A stretch of 64,000 nt of DNA from Escherichia coli (GCF_016903815.1 NZ_CP069973.1), one strand, 5' to 3'; numbered from the stretch's first letter, positions 12,718 to 18,039 are shown. Notes: generated from the sequence alone by a model not told the origin. Translations and numbers: made by a program.

Positions 12718-13746
12718 TTACGCCTTAATAGGGTTAATCACATTTCCGCTATCCGTACCATAGTATTTTTTTGTAGTCATGCCTTGTTTATAATAATCAT
12801 TTAACAGTTTGAGAAAGTTTCTTCCTTGCCTCTCATCTTCTATGACTAATTTACCATGCTCATTGGTCTTAAACTCTTCGTTCTGAAACATTTTTAGCAC
12901 ATCATTCATAGCTTGAACATCATTCTTTTCCAGAACCGTATGGTTACCTTTCTCAGCGATATGAGTGAGAATTTTTCTCAGTGATGGCTTATGAAGAATA
13001 GCTTGTTCAATAACATCTAAACCTTCAATAAGATCAAGTTCTTTAATTGTATTTAATGTTTTTTGTGCAGCTTCTGTAAACTCAACCTCCAAGCCTACAA
13101 TAGCCTCAAAACTTTTCTTATGAAATACATAAAATTGATCTTTTATATAAATACAATCGATTTTGTCATCAAAATTGACTGCGCTGCCATCAAATGATCT
13201 TAACTCTTTATCTGTTTTATCAAACAAAGCGAATACGCGCTGAGTCATATTTTGTGGTTCATTTGTTGTGACTTTCCCCCTGCTGATTTTTCGGAAAGAA
13301 TAAGTGACGTCAGCCCCCTTTTGGACTTTAATACAATAGGCCCACAAATCATTCTGAACCTCAGCAAGAGAGGTAAGTACAACTGGTTTATCATTCTTTA
13401 TATCGTTATTAATAACTTTTGAAAACGATATCGCGTTATTCATAGCATAGGCATAAATTTTATTATCAATATCATCATCAATAACAGTATGCTTTTTCAT
13501 CACAATATCATCTTTCGAAGCATGAGAAATAATCTGGTTTGATAAAGTATACTTAAAAAATTTAGCAATATCTGGAGCGATTGGAGCTTTAATGATTTTA
13601 AAATCGAATTTATCAACAACTCTTGCGGTTCTACTCATACCCGCTTTAAGATGTCTAGTAATGAAATACAACGATATTTTCGCCGCATCATCATCCTTAA
13701 GTTGCTCAGCATACTCTAATAATTCTTCAAGCTTTAACATTTTCAT
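12718..13746 (-). CDS. Soluble 342-aa protein, candidate Kiwa KwaB-like (DUF4868-like) defense component
   Basis: Second gene of an AT-rich two-gene operon, 4-nt overlap with the upstream membrane-protein gene; family assignment by architecture only. Confidence 0.55.
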   Translation of the reverse strand: MKMLKLEELLEYAEQLKDDDAAKISLYFITRHLKAGMSRTARVVDKFDFKIIKAPIAPDIAKFFKYTLSNQIISHASKDDIVMKKHTVIDDDIDNKIYAYAMNNAISFSKVINNDIKNDKPVVLTSLAEVQNDLWAYCIKVQKGADVTYSFRKISRGKVTTNEPQNMTQRVFALFDKTDKELRSFDGSAVNFDDKIDCIYIKDQFYVFHKKSFEAIVGLEVEFTEAAQKTLNTIKELDLIEGLDVIEQAILHKPSLRKILTHIAEKGNHTVLEKNDVQAMNDVLKMFQNEEFKTNEHGKLVIEDERQGRNFLKLLNDYYKQGMTTKKYYGTDSGNVINPIKA

Positions 13747-14357
13747 TCCTTATGGGATTCAGCATAAAAAAGTTTTGGGCCCACGTCCTCAACATCAAGA
13801 AGATCATCTTCCTCCAAATACTTTGATTTAGTCAAAACCATACCAGTGCGTTTTTTGTCGCTTTCTAAATCCAAATATGTAACTTGATATAAAGTATAAT
13901 TAATACTTATTGTAGGATTTATAAGTATCATGCTTGAATTAATATATATTAAAGCCGTTACCGTTAACAATATTGCTATAGGTATAACATTAGTTAAAGT
14001 GGATAGATCCTGAAATACAAACGGAATTATATATGTAAAAAGATAGCTTATTGATTCATTGTTTTTATTTTCAATATCTATAACTCTTACAGTTCTACCA
14101 CTAGTGGCGCATCGACGTTTTATATTTTTTAAAAAAATTGTTAATCCTACAATACCAAATAATGATAATACACCAATGACACTGACCGCGCCAAAGTATT
14201 TAAAGAAAATAGTTAATGATTCAACACTTATACCTTTCCAATTTAAATAGCTTCTATAAGTATACAATTGCACAAAACACATGATAAAGAATAGGGGAAG
14301 GTATGACACTATAAATAGCGAAACTCTAGCACCTAAATGTAGTTTATTTACTCTCAT
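13743..14357 (-). CDS. Four-helix integral membrane protein, candidate Kiwa KwaA-like
   Basis: 204 aa with four hydrophobic segments (about residues 12-32, 55-76, 103-115, 125-140) and an acidic C-terminal tail; -10-like TAAAAT about 30 nt upstream. Confidence 0.55.
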   Translation of the reverse strand: MRVNKLHLGARVSLFIVSYLPLFFIMCFVQLYTYRSYLNWKGISVESLTIFFKYFGAVSVIGVLSLFGIVGLTIFLKNIKRRCATSGRTVRVIDIENKNNESISYLFTYIIPFVFQDLSTLTNVIPIAILLTVTALIYINSSMILINPTISINYTLYQVTYLDLESDKKRTGMVLTKSKYLEEDDLLDVEDVGPKLFYAESHKE

Positions 14358-14565: not shown

Positions 14566-15252
14566 TCACTCCTTCTCTTCTTTATCGTAGTGGAGTTGAC
14601 CAATTTTGATAAGAGGGCGTCCCTGAGATTTGCGGTGTAGATTGGTATCGCGCAGAGAATACACACAGCCACAATATTCCTGCTGATAGAATTTTTCGCG
14701 CTTGCTGATTTCAATCATGCGGGACGAGCCGCCCTGCTTGCGCCAGTTATAATCCCAGTACACCATGCCCGGATAATGCGCGACGGCTCGCCGCCCACAG
14801 TCGTTAACCTGCTGCATATTTTTCCAGCGTGAAATGCCCAGTGAACTGCTGATCACACTGAAACCATTTTCAGCAGCGTACAGCGCTGTCCGCTCAAAAC
14901 GCATGTCAAAACACATGGTACAACGGATCCCCCTCTCGGGCTCCCATTCCATTCCTTTGGCACGTTCAAACCAGTTGTCTGTGTCGTAATCAGCATCAAT
15001 AAATGGCACGCCGTGTTGTTCAGCAAAGCGAATATTCTCATCCTTACGAATTAAATACTCTTTCTGAGGATGAATGTTCGGGTTGTAGAAAAAGATGGTA
15101 TAGTCGATTCTCGAGGCCTGAAGTGCCTCCATCACTTCACCGGAACATGGAGCACAGCAAGAGTGCAGTAGTAGTTTGTTTGCCCCGTTTGGGAGCTCCA
15201 ATTTAGGCCGTTTGAAATCAGCAATAGTCATAAATATTTTTATTGGGGTCAT
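14566..15252 (-). CDS. QueH-like (DUF208) epoxyqueuosine-reductase homolog
   Basis: N-terminal [11 protein letters not shown] motif plus further conserved Cys (CTMC, CGC); alternative start at 15231. Confidence 0.65.
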
Positions 15253-15433: not shown

Positions 15434-15832
15434 TCACTGATAAAATGCCAGTATGCGCTGCATAACTTCGCTCTTCCGGCACTCACAGCAAATTATGTTT
15501 TGGTGCCTGTCATAACGACGTATTTCTCCGTCAGGTAATGACCAGATAAGGTCCGGATCAACCACAGATGTTTTCTTCACCTTTGCCCTCGAGAGTTTTT
15601 TGCGGGCGTTTTGCCAGTCCTTACGAGCCTGTTCAGACGGGAATAACCCGTAGCCAGAGTTATATACATCACCACTGGCAACCAGCTCTCTGGCGAGAAC
15701 GCTCATCAGATATCTTGTCGCACCTGTCTTGGCTTCCAGTTGCCGTAACGTCTCGCGCCCACTCCGGCGTACTAGCTCAACAACCTGCCCCTTGATTTTT
15801 TCCCGCTCTTCTTGTGTAAAAACTTTTGCCAC
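15434..15832 (-). CDS. Hypothetical prophage early protein (132 aa)
   Basis: ORF downstream of the replication gene on the same strand; CCxC motif near the C-terminus. Confidence 0.45.
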   Translation of the reverse strand: MAKVFTQEEREKIKGQVVELVRRSGRETLRQLEAKTGATRYLMSVLARELVASGDVYNSGYGLFPSEQARKDWQNARKKLSRAKVKKTSVVDPDLIWSLPDGEIRRYDRHQNIICCECRKSEVMQRILAFYQ

Positions 15833-15872: not shown

Positions 15873-16892
15873 TTATCCTCTGAAACCAGGCGGAATTTCT
15901 GTATCCGGTTCAGAAATATGATTAACACAACGCTGTACAGGTGAACGCCCCAGGCGGATGACCAGTTCGTCCCATTTTTCGCGGAGCTTTGACGGGCTCA
16001 TGATGTTTTTTACCCAGAATGGATCCCGCTGTACCCGACCAAACATTTCACAAATTTGTCTGTGACTTCTGCCATCCAGCATCCGCATTGTGCGCACATC
16101 ATTGGCCCAGACAGTCCAGTTAGGCTCTTTTGGTCGCATGATCTCGCCATCATCACTGGCGGCCTGTTCGTAGAGACCCACGATCCGCCCCCATATCCAC
16201 TGCGCACACGCCAGATCCTCCTGGCTACCCCACTGGCGTTTTTTCGCACTAAACACAACTGCGCCAGGGTGCCGGATTAAAAAATCCTGTTCAGCCGTCT
16301 GCGGGTCCGGTTGCGAAGCTTCCGGACGAAAAGTGTTTTTATTCTCTGTAGTAATCTCTGTTGTATTCTCTGTAGGATCATCGGGCCATTTTGACCCGAT
16401 GACATTGGGTCGTTTTGAACCAATGGAGCGTTTCATTTTGACCTCTTCCATCGTGTCATTTTGACCTGATGGAGCGGCGCATTTTGAACCGATGGATTCG
16501 CTCAATTTGCCATCATCTAAAAGCTCGCTCCCATAGTTAATCGTGTAGAAATTGGTCATATCGCGCTTTGATTTATTGAGCTTTTCACAACGCAAAAGCC
16601 CCAGCGTTTTCAGACTTGCAAACGCGCGCTTTAACGTTGACTCTGACCAGAATGGGAACTGTTCCAGCCATTGTTCCGTTGTGTTGTAAATCCAGCGAAC
16701 ACCATCACATTCCATGCCGGAATTGGTATCTCTCAACCAGTAATGCAACTGCTGCAACACAATGGCTTCATTTAAGCCAATCTTCATCGCAAGCTGTGTG
16801 TTTATAACCAGTGGGCGTTCAGCAAAAAGAAGGCTCATAATTCCATCCAGCTTTTTGTTGGTATTGCTGTCGATACGCAAGCTTGAAAGCAA
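15873..16892 (-). CDS. Phage replication initiator (lambda O-like)
   Basis: 339-aa ORF with HTH-like N-terminal domain; central IGSK repeats encoded by DNA iterons; start codon uncertain. Confidence 0.65.
   Translation of the reverse strand: MLSSLRIDSNTNKKLDGIMSLLFAERPLVINTQLAMKIGLNEAIVLQQLHYWLRDTNSGMECDGVRWIYNTTEQWLEQFPFWSESTLKRAFASLKTLGLLRCEKLNKSKRDMTNFYTINYGSELLDDGKLSESIGSKCAAPSGQNDTMEEVKMKRSIGSKRPNVIGSKWPDDPTENTTEITTENKNTFRPEASQPDPQTAEQDFLIRHPGAVVFSAKKRQWGSQEDLACAQWIWGRIVGLYEQAASDDGEIMRPKEPNWTVWANDVRTMRMLDGRSHRQICEMFGRVQRDPFWVKNIMSPSKLREKWDELVIRLGRSPVQRCVNHISEPDTEIPPGFRG
16330..16520. repeat. Candidate phage origin: five to six iterons (consensus about CATTTTGACCYGATGG) plus adjacent ATTCTCTGTAG repeats, inside the O-like gene
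   Basis: Tandem near-repeats at roughly 20-24-bp spacing between 16385 and 16520, AT-rich repeats at 16340-16378. Confidence 0.6.
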
Positions 16893-17340
16893 TTGCTTTT
16901 TCTATAAGTTCGTCAGTTTCACGATCCACTACGGCAGGATCAGCAAAAAGCAGTCCGGACTCCACCACATCGCCATATTCTTTGTTTAACCCGGCGATCA
17001 TGCACGTGATGCTTTTTCCGTCAGTAATTTCACGATACAACCTGAAATCACTAATCCGGATAGCCTCCATAATCGCAGGCACTAGCGCCGTGAACTTTTC
17101 ACGCTTATCCCTGGTGTCGATAGCCTTCCAGCGTTCGAATATCTTCACTCGATTAACGCCAAGCGCTCGCTGATCAACCGCGCCACCTTCATCTGTGACA
17201 CGCTGAACATCGATGTTCGGGCGCTCTTTCAAAGCCCAGAATGCTTCAGTGATTAATATCGTCGCCTGCTCCTGTGTCATTCCTGGTCGACATATCCAGG
17301 CATCCAGAGCCTCACGAGCCTGTTCAGGAGTGATTTTCAT
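16819..17340 (-). CDS. Hypothetical early protein in the cII position (173 aa)
   Basis: ORF between the cro-like dicC and the O-like gene; function not recognisable. Confidence 0.45.
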   Translation of the reverse strand: MKITPEQAREALDAWICRPGMTQEQATILITEAFWALKERPNIDVQRVTDEGGAVDQRALGVNRVKIFERWKAIDTRDKREKFTALVPAIMEAIRISDFRLYREITDGKSITCMIAGLNKEYGDVVESGLLFADPAVVDRETDELIEKAIAFKLAYRQQYQQKAGWNYEPSFC

Positions 17341-17554
17341 TGTTCAACCGCCCCGCCCGCTTCGTCTTACGATATTCATCATAAACTTTGGGATCATACT
17401 GAAGCTCCCCGCCAGATGCCTCCTGTAGACGCATCGCGCGACCTTCAGGAACCAGTATCCCCCAAGCAGCAACACTTGCCAGCCTCACTCCTGCGGCATT
17501 GGCAAGCTTTGTTTTGCTGCCAAAAAAAGTAATTGCGTCAACTTTAAGCATCAA
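17324..17554 (-). CDS. dicC: Cro-like repressor DicC
   Basis: 76-aa ORF divergent from dicA; sequence recalled as DicC. Confidence 0.75.
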   Translation of the reverse strand: MMLKVDAITFFGSKTKLANAAGVRLASVAAWGILVPEGRAMRLQEASGGELQYDPKVYDEYRKTKRAGRLNNENHS

Positions 17555-17631
17555 AGCCCCCTCTTGTTAGACTTTTCTAACATTATTGTGCGCGGGATAC
17601 CTAAGTCAAGAAAAATTAGAATTACCTAACT

Positions 17632-18039
17632 ATGGATACAAGAACCCTGGGCCAGCGAGTTCTGGCGCGACGAAAAGAATTACGCTTAACACAACGAGAA
17701 GCCGCGCGCCTCGCTGGAGTTGCTCACGTCACAATTTCACAATGGGAAAGAGACGAAACCCAGCCAGTCGGAAAACGATTGTTTGCTTTAGCGGATGCTC
17801 TGAAGTGCTCACCTACATGGCTAATGTTTGGTGACGAAGACAAGGCACCAGTGCCTGCACAAGAACTTCATGTGGAAACAGAGCTAACTCCCAACCACAA
17901 AGAATTGATCGAATTATTCGATGCTCTTCCATCTTCCGAGCAGGAAGCCTTGCTGTCTGAAATGCGCGCAAGAGTAGAAAACTTCAACAAACTCTTCGAA
18001 GAAATGCTTAAAGCGCGTAAAAATAAATCAATAAAATAA
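17632..18039 (+). CDS. dicA: HTH-XRE repressor DicA
   Basis: 135 aa MDTRTLGQRVLARRKELRLTQREAARLAGVAHVTISQWERDETQP…. Confidence 0.9.
   Translation: MDTRTLGQRVLARRKELRLTQREAARLAGVAHVTISQWERDETQPVGKRLFALADALKCSPTWLMFGDEDKAPVPAQELHVETELTPNHKELIELFDALPSSEQEALLSEMRARVENFNKLFEEMLKARKNKSIK

What the first reader, a model, noticed from the sequence alone, without database searches (positions are those of the whole stretch)
16330..16520. Iteron array and AT-rich repeats inside the replication gene: candidate phage origin
Five to six near-repeats of about CATTTTGACCYGATGG at 20-24-bp spacing, plus ATTCTCTGTAG repeats, lie within the O-like coding sequence; the iterons encode a repeated IGSK peptide motif. 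This mirrors lambda ori inside O and suggests a potentially functional origin, unlike the replication-deleted Qin of K-12.
Basis: seen in the sequence. Interest (0 to 1): 0.45.

Follow-up and report, generated by a model that had tools for sequence, protein, structure and literature searches.

The report
Lambda-type replication origin in Qin prophage
The repeats are real and are very probably the replication origin of a Qin/mEp460-type lambdoid prophage, sitting inside its own initiator gene as in phage lambda; this is an ordinary kind of element, but this gene is unnamed in RefSeq and has no phage helicase-loader gene beside it.

Summary
Observation confirmed. Window 16379-16517 holds six 23-bp repeats (spacing 23,23,23,23,24). 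Three are full dyads and three keep mainly the left half (minus-strand consensus CATCrGgTCAAAATGrCcCGATG). Next to them, 16340-16375 holds three 12-bp ACAGAGAWTACW repeats. All lie in a 321-aa O-like initiator gene (15873-16838, minus strand).

Interpretation supported by sequence evidence.
- The array sits where lambda's ori sits in O.
- The repeats are read in all three frames, so they are not peptide repeats.
- Synonymous sites are frozen: 4/46 third positions vary in the iterons against 131/276 elsewhere, p=2e-7.
- The 12-mer block is the least stable 36 bp of the gene, as lambda's AT-rich region is in O.
- Eight homologues, from Klebsiella, Erwinia, Pantoea, Providencia and Pseudomonas phages to Staphylococcus phage 96, keep the same layout. 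Iteron sequence changes along with the N-domain.
- An isolated phage (HannyBb) carries the same module at 97% as its only annotated replication gene.
- K-12 Qin lacks the region.

Differences from lambda: an unrelated N-domain with no Pfam hit, no P gene, and a C-terminal tail copying the last ~20 residues of host DnaT.

It is a new member of a known kind. Function is untested.

The parts
16379..16517 (-). Array of six 23-bp iterons, the putative initiator-binding sites. I 16517-16495, II 16494-16472, III 16471-16449, IV 16448-16426, V 16425-16403, VI 16401-16379.
   Evidence: Repeat finders. Pattern statistics. Register and reading frames. Synonymous-site constraint. Conserved in eight homologues.
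16330..16375 (-). Three tandem 12-mers (ACAGAGAATACA / ACAGAGATTACT / ACAGAGAATAAA, 16375-16340) plus an A-run. This is the candidate DNA-unwinding element and corresponds to lambda's AT-rich tract.
   Evidence: The least stable 36-bp window of the gene is window 16371-16336, at -39.8 kcal/mol against a mean of -49.4 (sd 3.3). Thr is always ACA/ACT and Glu always GAG inside the block. Third positions are 86-100% identical across genera. Copy number varies among alleles.
15873..16838 (-). Gene for the 321-aa O-like replication initiator, which contains the origin.
   Evidence: ORF. RefSeq CDS WP_000054487 'hypothetical protein'. PHROG 391 'replication initiation O-like', E 3e-92. No Pfam hit.
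16518..16838 (-). Codes for the N-terminal domain (aa 1-107), the predicted winged-helix DNA-binding domain.
   Evidence: AF2 secondary structure H-H-E-E-H-H-E-E over residues 14-100, block-mean pLDDT about 43-76. Weak Foldseek hits to RepA_N and DnaD N-domains. PHROG 6493 over residues 2-168. Homologues in many phages.
15951..16304 (-). Codes for the helical C-terminal domain (aa 179-296), homologous to the C-terminal part of lambda O.
   Evidence: BLASTP against lambda O: 34% identity over residues 147-294 against lambda 135-270, E 3e-27. AF2 helices 179-296.
15876..15938 (-). Codes for the C-terminal tail VQRCVNHISEPDTEIPPGFRG, which copies the last 21 residues of host DnaT.
   Evidence: NCBIfam DnaT model positions 160-179. 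PDB DnaT chains 2ru8, 6aep, 9zbt. The same tail is on 49 phage-collection records; 46 lie in or at the end of phage genes, most of them annotated as replication proteins, and 3 are apparently host dnaT.
17582..17609 (-). pR-like sigma-70 promoter (TTGACT-16-AATAAT) that would drive dicC, the ydaT-like gene and the O-like gene, and so send transcription through the origin.
   Evidence: Consensus scan only. Its position matches the dicA/dicC divergent region.
16819..17554 (-). Upstream genes of the operon: DicC/Cro-like (17324-17554) and YdaT / CII-like (16819-17340).
15434..15832 (-). DUF977 / Ren-like gene immediately after the O-like gene. This is the place where lambda has P followed by ren.
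17632..18039 (+). DicA-like repressor gene, expected to keep the operon and the origin silent in the lysogen.
   Evidence: Repression is inferred, not tested.

Best explanation
Window 16330-16517 is the replication origin of a Qin/mEp460-type lambdoid prophage, embedded in the linker-coding middle of its own initiator gene.

Proposed mechanism:
1. When DicA repression is lifted, the pR-like promoter transcribes dicC, the ydaT-like gene and the O-like gene.
2. The initiator's N-terminal winged-helix domain binds the six 23-bp iterons, as dimers on the dyad-symmetric ones. This forms an O-some-like wrapped complex.
3. The strain opens the adjoining block of three ACAGAGAWTAC 12-mers, which is the least stable stretch of the gene.
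4. Host DnaB is loaded there. No phage P, DnaC or DnaB gene is present, so recruitment must go through the initiator's C-terminal domain and/or its DnaT-like tail acting on host proteins.

What is shown and what is inferred:
- Shown: repeat anatomy, positional homology to ori-lambda, DNA-level selection, conservation, change of iteron type along with the N-domain, and presence of the module as the sole annotated replication gene of an isolated phage.
- Inferred: binding, unwinding, and the helicase-loading route.
For: 1. Anatomy: six in-phase 23-bp units with dyad symmetry, then three 12-mers. The clustering is far beyond chance.
2. Same place as lambda: BLASTP aligns residues 147 onward (last iteron plus 12-mers) with lambda O residues 135 onward (iteron 4 plus AT-rich tract). 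Both iteron types share the core TCAAAAYGA flanked by inverted arms.
3. Not a peptide repeat: the 23-bp period puts the units in frames 0,2,1,0,2,2.
4. DNA-level constraint within E. coli: among 50 alleles, third codon positions vary at 4/46 sites in the iterons against 131/276 elsewhere (Fisher p=2e-7). First and second positions vary more than elsewhere, 21/93 against 59/551.
5. DNA-level constraint between genera: third-position identity is 38-53% in the N-domain, 61-85% in the iterons and 86-100% in the 12-mers.
6. Melting: the 12-mer block is the least stable 36 bp of the gene in 4 of 5 family members. The same measure picks out lambda's known AT-rich tract in O.
7. Conservation: eight homologues down to about 46% N-domain identity keep iterons plus the ACAGAGA motif at the same site, despite different C-domains and hosts.
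8. Two iteron types: GGTCA..TGACC (GGACA in Staphylococcus phage 96) and GGGCA..TGCCC. They separate exactly with residues 67 (S/R vs D) and 73 (F vs L) in predicted helix 66-78, and with residue 83 in the wing.
9. The ori-encoded residues 101-178 are predicted disordered, between two folded domains.
10. Phage HannyBb has the gene at 97.3% identity, with 2 changes in the iterons and identical 12-mers. It has no other annotated replication gene. Phage mEp460, with a closely related module, completes lytic and lysogenic cycles (PMC9836094).
11. The defining features of ori-lambda are taken from PMC5043065 and PMC7466680.
Against: - No experiment: neither binding nor autonomous replication has been shown for this module.
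- The unwinding block is only about 65% A+T, which looks less extreme than lambda's tract.
- The N-domain has no detectable sequence similarity to lambda O and no Pfam family. The structural model is weak (mean pLDDT 55) and no fold match reaches E<0.1.
- No helicase loader is encoded nearby, so the loading step has no identified route.
- The link between iteron type and N-domain residues rests on nine sequences in two clades and is confounded by phylogeny.
- The promoter is a consensus match only, and the scan found fewer such sites than shuffles do.
Confidence: 0.85

Rival explanations
1. The array is an origin by descent, but in this cryptic prophage it is kept because it acts as a decoy or exclusion element. 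The chromosomal iterons, with or without resident initiator, would titrate or misdirect the initiator of incoming phages of the same replication type.
For: The prophage is defective (IS1, IS200, ISNCY and IS66 insertions). It still keeps an intact gene and array, next to a Kiwa defence system. The array is in 1892 of 5426 complete E. coli genomes, up to 4 copies per genome. Ectopic lambda ori copies are reported to inhibit cognate phages (abstracts of PMC4488673 and PMC3349717, seen).
Against: The same sequence constraints are seen in isolated phages and across genera, where an origin function is enough to explain them. Nothing specific to exclusion was found. This reading does not contradict the array being an origin.
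Confidence: 0.1
2. The repeats are operator-like sites for a regulator that is not an initiator. They could serve autoregulation or attenuation of the O-like operon, or bind DicA, DicC, the YdaT-like protein or a host factor, with no role in replication.
For: Dyad-symmetric sites are typical of dimeric regulators. Several phage records annotate homologues of the protein as 'transcriptional regulator'.
Against: Six phased sites followed by a conserved, easily melted block inside an initiator gene, at the position of ori-lambda, match an origin and not an operator. The iteron consensus does not occur in the dicA-dicC control region or anywhere else in the window. DnaA boxes are not enriched (7 found against about 5.4 expected) and there is no IHF site.
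Confidence: 0.04
3. The repeats are a by-product of a repetitive, low-complexity protein linker kept uniform by slippage, with no function at the DNA level.
For: The region encodes a disordered linker. The 12-mer copy number varies by slippage: L018 has +24 bp and L083 has -12 bp. The TExTTExTTE residues are invariant in the protein alignment.
Against: A 23-bp period is not a multiple of 3, so the iterons are translated in three frames into unrelated peptides. Third positions are more conserved than first and second positions. Each unit has dyad symmetry. Codon choice inside the 12-mers is fixed as ACA/ACT and GAG in five genera, whereas the rest of the gene uses all synonymous codons.
Confidence: 0.02

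Closest known systems
ori-lambda inside gene O of phage lambda (O-some origin)
   Same: The origin lies in the middle of the initiator gene, at the boundary between the DNA-binding and C-terminal domains. Tandem dyad-symmetric iterons have an A-tract core (TCAAAAYGA in both). A purine-rich, easily melted block follows on the downstream side. The operon order is cro, cII-like, O and then ren-like, downstream of a pR-like promoter. The C-terminal domain is 34% identical to that of lambda O.
   Different: There are six 23-bp iterons instead of four 18-bp ones. The N-domain is unrelated in sequence. The unwinding block is made of three ordered 12-mers and is about 65% A+T. There is no P gene. A DnaT-like tail is added to the C-terminus.
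Origins of Stx phages 933W and P27 (six iterons; PMC7466680)
   Same: There are six iterons inside the O gene. In those phages only four are bound strongly, yet all six matter. Here three units are full dyads and three are half-conserved.
   Different: Stx O and P are close relatives of lambda O and P. The window protein shares only the C-domain, and there is no P.
RepA_N-family plasmid initiators (pSK41 and pTZ2162 RepA; PDB 4pql, 5kbj) and DnaD-type N-domains
   Same: These are the best, though weak, fold matches for the N-domain. PHROG families labelled 'DnaD-like' match residues 2-168. From my own knowledge, RepA_N replicons also carry their iterons inside the rep gene, in the variable middle part.
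   Different: There is no significant sequence or fold score: E>0.1 on a model of mean pLDDT 55. The C-terminal domains differ. These are plasmids of Gram-positive bacteria.
DUE repeats of iteron plasmids and oriC (13-mers of RK2, F and oriC)
   Same: An ordered set of short direct repeats inside the unwinding region lies next to the initiator sites. From my own knowledge, TrfA and RepE bind one strand of such repeats. This is the model for the 12-mers.
   Different: The sequence is unrelated and lies inside a coding region. Single-strand binding has not been tested here.
DnaT C-terminal motif on O-like proteins (DopC, PMC5509034) and on phage initiators annotated 'primosomal protein I'
   Same: An O-like initiator ends in the DnaT C-terminal motif. 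Salmonella phage SPN1S carries the whole DnaT C-terminal domain at 63% identity.
   Different: DopC was reported to have no iterons and to be domesticated. The window gene has iterons, and only the last ~21 residues resemble DnaT.

Membership tests
Lambdoid origin of the ori-lambda type | The origin lies inside the initiator gene, between the DNA-binding and C-terminal domains. | tested here: met
   The iterons occupy gene nt 322-460 and the 12-mers nt 463-501. BLASTP aligns this region with the ori-encoding part of lambda O. The encoded residues 101-178 are predicted disordered.
Lambdoid origin of the ori-lambda type | Four or more tandem iterons with internal dyad symmetry, about two helical turns apart. 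| tested here: met
   Six units at 23-24 bp. Three are full dyads. Far beyond chance.
Lambdoid origin of the ori-lambda type | An adjacent A+T-rich, easily unwound tract on the downstream side of the iterons. | tested here: met
   This is the least stable 36-bp window of the gene, about 2.9 sd below the mean. The same measure finds lambda's tract. A+T is only about 65%.
Lambdoid origin of the ori-lambda type | The initiator binds the iterons and opens the AT-rich tract on supercoiled DNA. | not testable with these tools
   Needs EMSA or footprinting and KMnO4 or P1 probing. Indirect support: iteron type changes together with N-domain residues 67, 73 and 83.
Lambdoid origin of the ori-lambda type | Transcription from pR passes through or near the origin. 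| tested here: inconclusive
   One promoter-like site lies at 17609-17582, upstream of dicC on the gene strand. It is a consensus match only.
Lambdoid origin of the ori-lambda type | A partner gene P (or a phage DnaC or DnaB) next to O delivers the host helicase. | tested here: not met
   The next gene is DUF977 / Ren-like. No such gene is annotated anywhere in the phage HannyBb genome.
Lambda O protein family (sequence membership) | Full-length homology to lambda O, including the N-terminal iteron-binding domain. | tested here: not met
   Only residues 147-294 align (34% identity, E 3e-27). The N-domain gives no alignment. There is no Pfam family at all. PHROG 391 'replication initiation O-like' matches full length, E 3e-92.
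DnaT (primosomal protein I) | A full-length match to the DnaT equivalog model above its cut-off. | tested here: not met
   NCBIfam NF002770 scores 16.3 bits against a cut-off of 201, and only model positions 160-179 match. The label 'Primosomal protein I' in phage records is therefore a tail-only artefact.
RepA_N / DnaD-like winged-helix initiators | An N-terminal winged-helix fold of that family. | tested here: inconclusive
   Secondary structure fits a winged helix. The top Foldseek hits are 4pql, 5kbj and 2v79, but E is 0.1-0.5 on a low-confidence model.

The most novel reading that the evidence does not exclude
This may be a distinct, widespread, P-independent type of origin. An initiator-only module would recruit the host helicase machinery through a DnaT-mimicking C-terminal tail that docks on whatever DnaT's own tail binds (DnaB-DnaC, or PriA/PriB). 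Its conserved ACAGAGAWTAC 12-mers would be sequence-specific single-strand sites for the initiator in the unwinding element. The 12-mers travel with the N-domain family in phages of six Gram-negative genera, and a single ACAGAGA copy sits at the same place in Staphylococcus phage 96.
Probability: 0.3. Interest if true: 0.6.

Novelty: new member of a known kind. Interest (0 to 1): 0.35.

Why it matters
- Annotation: about a third of complete E. coli genomes (1892 of 5426) carry this array inside a gene that RefSeq nearly always calls 'hypothetical protein'. Recognising it as an initiator with a built-in origin gives a name to a very common gene. It also marks these Qin-like prophages as potentially able to replicate in place, next to the chromosome terminus (tus lies in the same window).
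- Mechanism: the module offers a compact lambda-like replicon without P. That makes it possible to ask how a lambda-type initiator hands over host DnaB without a phage loader, and what the conserved extreme C-terminus of DnaT binds.
- Practical use: the 2-kb segment could serve as a small replicon, or as a typing marker for replication-type incompatibility among lambdoid phages.

Tried and rejected
- Pfam scan of the initiator gave nothing. The NCBIfam scan matched only the DnaT tail.
- The sequence search of the PDB found only the DnaT tail and a spurious YteR match.
- The AF2 model was weak (mean pLDDT 55). The Foldseek search of the PDB had no hit with E<0.1, so the fold assignment is only suggestive.
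- DnaA boxes are not enriched (7 against about 5.4 expected per 2.5 kb) and there is no IHF consensus near the array. A DnaA- or IHF-assisted model is therefore not supported.
- I looked for the role of DnaT's extreme C-terminus in reviews and in the 2026 preprimosome structure paper. The accessible text does not say what the tail contacts. The FEBS J 2014 paper on DnaT is not held.
- I tested the idea that the tail replaces a phage loader. It fails as a rule. Tail-bearing initiators occur with a DnaC-like neighbour (Gifsy-2, POCJ13, Rac-type YdaU-YdaV) and also alone (SPN1S and the window type).
- I tested whether the 12-mers go with the tail. They do not. Gifsy-2 O has the tail and lambda-like iterons but no ACAGAGA repeats. 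The 12-mers follow the N-domain family instead.
- Literature searches for this origin type (Qin, mEp460, iterons, Staphylococcus phages) found no description of it.

Full report
**1. What is in the sequence**

The region lies in a minus-strand ORF, window 15873-16838. RefSeq annotates it as a 321-aa 'hypothetical protein'.

Read on the gene strand, it contains six 23-bp units:
- I GATGATGGCAAATTGAGCGAATC
- II CATCGGTTCAAAATGCGCCGCTC
- III CATCAGGTCAAAATGACACGATG
- IV GAAGAGGTCAAAATGAAACGCTC
- V CATTGGTTCAAAACGACCCAATG
- VI CATCGGGTCAAAATGGCCCGATG

They span window 16517-16379 with spacing 23, 23, 23, 23, 24. Units III, V and VI are dyads of two 10-bp arms around AAA. Units I, II and IV keep mainly the left half.

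Five bases further on come three 12-mers, ACAGAGAATACA, ACAGAGATTACT and ACAGAGAATAAA (window 16375-16340), followed by an A-run.

The iteron 15-mer with up to 3 mismatches gives 8 hits in 64 kb. Four of them are in phase within 108 bp. Shuffles give 2.58 hits on average and never 8. A cluster like this has a chance of about 1e-9.

**2. Context**

The window is almost identical to E. coli strain 7/2: 1 mismatch over window 9400-64000. The first 9.7 kb does not align base for base in a direct, ungapped comparison.

It covers the Qin prophage at its usual site beside rspB:
- To the left: lysis genes, ydfT/ydfU, hokD, relBE, ydfV, flxA, ydfW and a truncated ISNCY.
- In the middle: a Kiwa system (KwaA/KwaB), QueH, a DUF977 gene, the O-like gene, a YdaT-family (CII-like) gene, dicC, then divergently dicA, ydfA/B, dicB and ydfD.
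- To the right: an exonuclease, xis, IS66 and int.

K-12 Qin matches only from window 17061 rightwards. The truncated ydaT-like gene ydfX abuts ydfW, so the O-like gene and its array are deleted there.

**3. The protein**

- PHROG 391 'replication initiation O-like' matches full length (E 3e-92). Pfam gives nothing.
- Residues 147-294 are 34% identical to lambda O residues 135-270. The N-terminal 110 residues have no similarity to lambda O.
- The N-terminal region does have homologues in 139 phage records, from Klebsiella and Erwinia to Pseudomonas, Vibrio, Bacillus, Listeria and Staphylococcus.
- An AF2 model (mean pLDDT 55) gives a winged-helix pattern for residues 14-100, a disordered stretch at 101-178 and a helical C-domain at 179-296.
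- The best Foldseek matches are the N-domains of RepA_N initiators (4pql, 5kbj) and DnaD (2v79). All have E>0.1, so this is only a hint.
- The disordered stretch is exactly the part encoded by the iterons and 12-mers.

**4. Homology of position with ori-lambda**

[quoted passage not shown] BLASTP puts the window's last iteron and 12-mers (VIGSKWPDDPTENTTEITTENK) opposite lambda's iteron 4 and AT-rich tract (LGDCYPSKQGDTKDTITKEKRK).

The two iteron types share the design of inverted arms around TCAAAAYGA: lambda has CCCTCAAAACGAGGG and the window has GGGTCAAAATGACCC. The gene order is the same as in lambda (cro, cII-like, O, then ren-like), except that P is missing.

**5. Selection acts on the DNA, not on the peptide**

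- The 23-bp period places the six units in frames 0, 2, 1, 0, 2, 2, giving unrelated peptides.
- Among 50 distinct alleles from IMG/VR, third positions vary at 4 of 46 sites in the iterons against 131 of 276 in the rest of the gene (p=2e-7). First and second positions vary more than elsewhere.
- The common variants fall on positions that are already degenerate within the array, for example CCCGATG to CCTGATG, which matches CATCAGG in unit III.
- Against mEp460_4F5, Klebsiella Kp4882-3 and Providencia PSTCR8lys, third-position identity is 53, 47 and 38% in the N-domain, 85, 83 and 61% in the iterons, and 100, 100 and 86% in the 12-mers.
- Inside the 12-mers, Thr is always ACA or ACT and Glu is always GAG in five genera. 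The rest of each gene uses all synonymous codons.

**6. Unwinding element**

With nearest-neighbour energies, the least stable 36-bp window of the whole gene starts at gene nt 468 (window 16371-16336). Its energy is -39.8 kcal/mol against a mean of -49.4 with sd 3.3.

The 12-mer block is likewise the minimum in mEp460_4F5, Klebsiella Kp4882-3 and Erwinia PEp14. In lambda O, the minimum falls on the known AT-rich tract. In the AT-rich Providencia gene the block ranks fourth.

The number of 12-mers varies among alleles: +24 bp in L018 and -12 bp in L083.

**7. Comparative test**

Eight diverged homologues were read: mEp460_4F5, Klebsiella Kp4882-3 and SopranoGao, Erwinia PEp14, Pantoea AH07, Providencia PSTCR8lys, Pseudomonas AF and Staphylococcus phage 96.

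- All have iterons at 22-24-bp spacing at the same point in the gene. Seven have three to six; Pseudomonas AF has one clear unit and one degenerate one.
- All are followed by the ACAGAGA motif. The seven Gram-negative phages have two to four ordered TACAGAGAWTAC copies; phage 96 has a single ACAGAGA copy.
- Their C-terminal domains differ: lambda-O-like, a DnaD-like or 'conserved phage C-terminus' type, and others. Their downstream genes also differ (methylases, regulators, a primase-helicase in AF).
- Natural recombinants join the Klebsiella-type N-domain to the E. coli-type C-domain at the origin (P0014 and P0025).
- The iterons fall into two types. GGTCA-AAW-TGACC occurs in E. coli, Klebsiella Kp4882-3, Providencia and, as GGACA, Staphylococcus 96. 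GGGCA-AWT-TGCCC occurs in Erwinia, Pantoea, SopranoGao and Pseudomonas AF.
- Five alignment columns separate the two types completely. Three lie in the predicted recognition helix or wing: residue 67 (S/R against D), 73 (F against L) and 83. This fits the N-domain reading the iterons. The sample is small and consists of two clades.
- The 12-mers follow the N-domain family and not the tail. Gifsy-2 O has the tail and lambda-like iterons but no ACAGAGA repeats.

**8. Is the module functional?**

Phage HannyBb, an isolated 45-kb phage, carries the gene at 97.3% nucleotide identity. It has two changes in the iterons and identical 12-mers. The O-like gene is its only annotated replication gene. mEp460_ev081 and PhiR42_1 carry the module at about 96%. 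mEp460 is reported to complete both life cycles (PMC9836094).

The prophage copy in the window has an intact gene and array, so nothing in the sequence rules out firing once DicA repression is lifted. A promoter-like site (TTGACT-16-AATAAT) lies upstream of dicC.

**9. Helicase loading is the open step**

There is no P, DnaC or DnaB gene nearby. The protein ends in VNHISEPDTEIPPGFRG, which matches DnaT's last residues, VNTVSEPDSQIPPGFRG.

A tblastn search with DnaT's last 21 residues finds 49 records in the phage collection. All are from Escherichia, Salmonella, Klebsiella, Shigella or Pantoea. Three are apparently host dnaT, in Salmonella chromosome contigs held in that collection. In the other 46 the match lies in or at the end of a phage gene, most of them annotated as a replication protein.

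Some of these initiators have a DnaC-like neighbour (Gifsy-2, POCJ13, Rac-type YdaU-YdaV). Others stand alone (SPN1S and the window type). SPN1S carries the whole DnaT C-terminal domain at 63% identity. A DnaT C-terminal motif on an O-like protein was noted before for DopC (PMC5509034).

In E. coli, dnaT sits directly upstream of dnaC. DnaT is thought to recruit DnaB-DnaC, by an unknown mechanism (PMC13377028). I therefore propose, as inference only, that the tail docks the initiator onto the host DnaB-DnaC or PriA/PriB machinery.

**10. Verdict**

The finding is right. This is a lambda-type origin (iterons plus unwinding block) inside an initiator gene. It belongs to a widespread replication-module family that is unnamed in RefSeq and has no Pfam match. 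It is a new member of a known kind, not a new kind.

The unusual points are the initiator-only arrangement, the DnaT-like tail and the strongly conserved 12-mers. These deserve experiments but are not established here.

Noticed in passing
window 15876-15938 (-); also L097, L099, L096, L098: The initiator ends with a copy of the last ~20 residues of host DnaT (…SEPDxxIPPGFRG). A tblastn search finds the tail in 49 records of the phage collection, all from enterobacterial hosts. Three are apparently host dnaT; the rest lie in or at the end of phage genes, mostly annotated as replication proteins. Some have a DnaC-like neighbour and some do not. SPN1S has the whole DnaT C-domain at 63% identity. 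This explains the misleading 'Primosomal protein I' labels. The partner of the tail is unknown.
   Followed up: partly
window 16340-16375; L084-L087, L092-L095: The 12-mer TACAGAGAWTAC is conserved, including its synonymous positions, in E. coli, Klebsiella, Erwinia, Pantoea, Providencia and Pseudomonas phages. A single ACAGAGA copy sits at the same place in Staphylococcus phage 96. It follows the N-domain family and not the C-domain, the tail or the host. Copy number varies from 2 to 5 among alleles.
   Followed up: partly
L093 1814-1889 (Staphylococcus phage 96 ORF015): The iterons of a Staphylococcus aureus phage (CATCGGGACAAAATGGCCCGAC) are nearly the same as E. coli iteron VI (CATCGGGTCAAAATGGCCCGATG). 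The N-domains are about 46% identical. An initiator and its site are conserved across phyla.
   Followed up: partly
window 12718-14357 (-): A complete Kiwa anti-phage system sits inside the prophage, two genes from the replication module: KwaA (204 aa, E 1e-101) and KwaB (342 aa, E 5e-158). RefSeq calls KwaA 'hypothetical protein'.
   Followed up: yes
window 14566-15252 (-): A QueH (epoxyqueuosine reductase) gene lies between Kiwa and the DUF977 gene. This is an unusual cargo for this position in a lambdoid early operon.
   Followed up: no
window 15873-16838 (-) in 1892 E. coli genomes: This very common initiator gene is labelled 'hypothetical protein' in nearly all RefSeq genomes and has no Pfam family. 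It occurs in 35% of complete E. coli genomes, up to 4 copies per genome, and has 4263 homologues in the protein collection. Only a few records call it 'phage replication protein O'.
   Followed up: yes
proteins P0002-P0004, P0044, P0045; window 16819-16838: The YdaT-like and O-like genes overlap by 20 nt. Some database entries are 448-aa YdaT-O fusions carrying PF06254, probably from frameshifts or mis-called starts.
   Followed up: no
proteins P0014, P0025: Natural mosaics join a Klebsiella-type N-domain to the E. coli-type C-domain, with the junction in the origin region. The origin seems to act as a recombination joint between initiator modules.
   Followed up: no
window about 58266-59195 (tus) relative to 16330-16517: The candidate origin lies about 42 kb from the tus gene, in the chromosome terminus region. 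If it fired in place, forks would start inside the termination zone.
   Followed up: no
window 1-9689: A direct, ungapped comparison of the left end of the window with strain 7/2 gives 486 mismatches in 9.7 kb, while the rest of the window is identical. An indel shifting the register could explain this as well as real divergence. This part contains IS1 and IS200.
   Followed up: no
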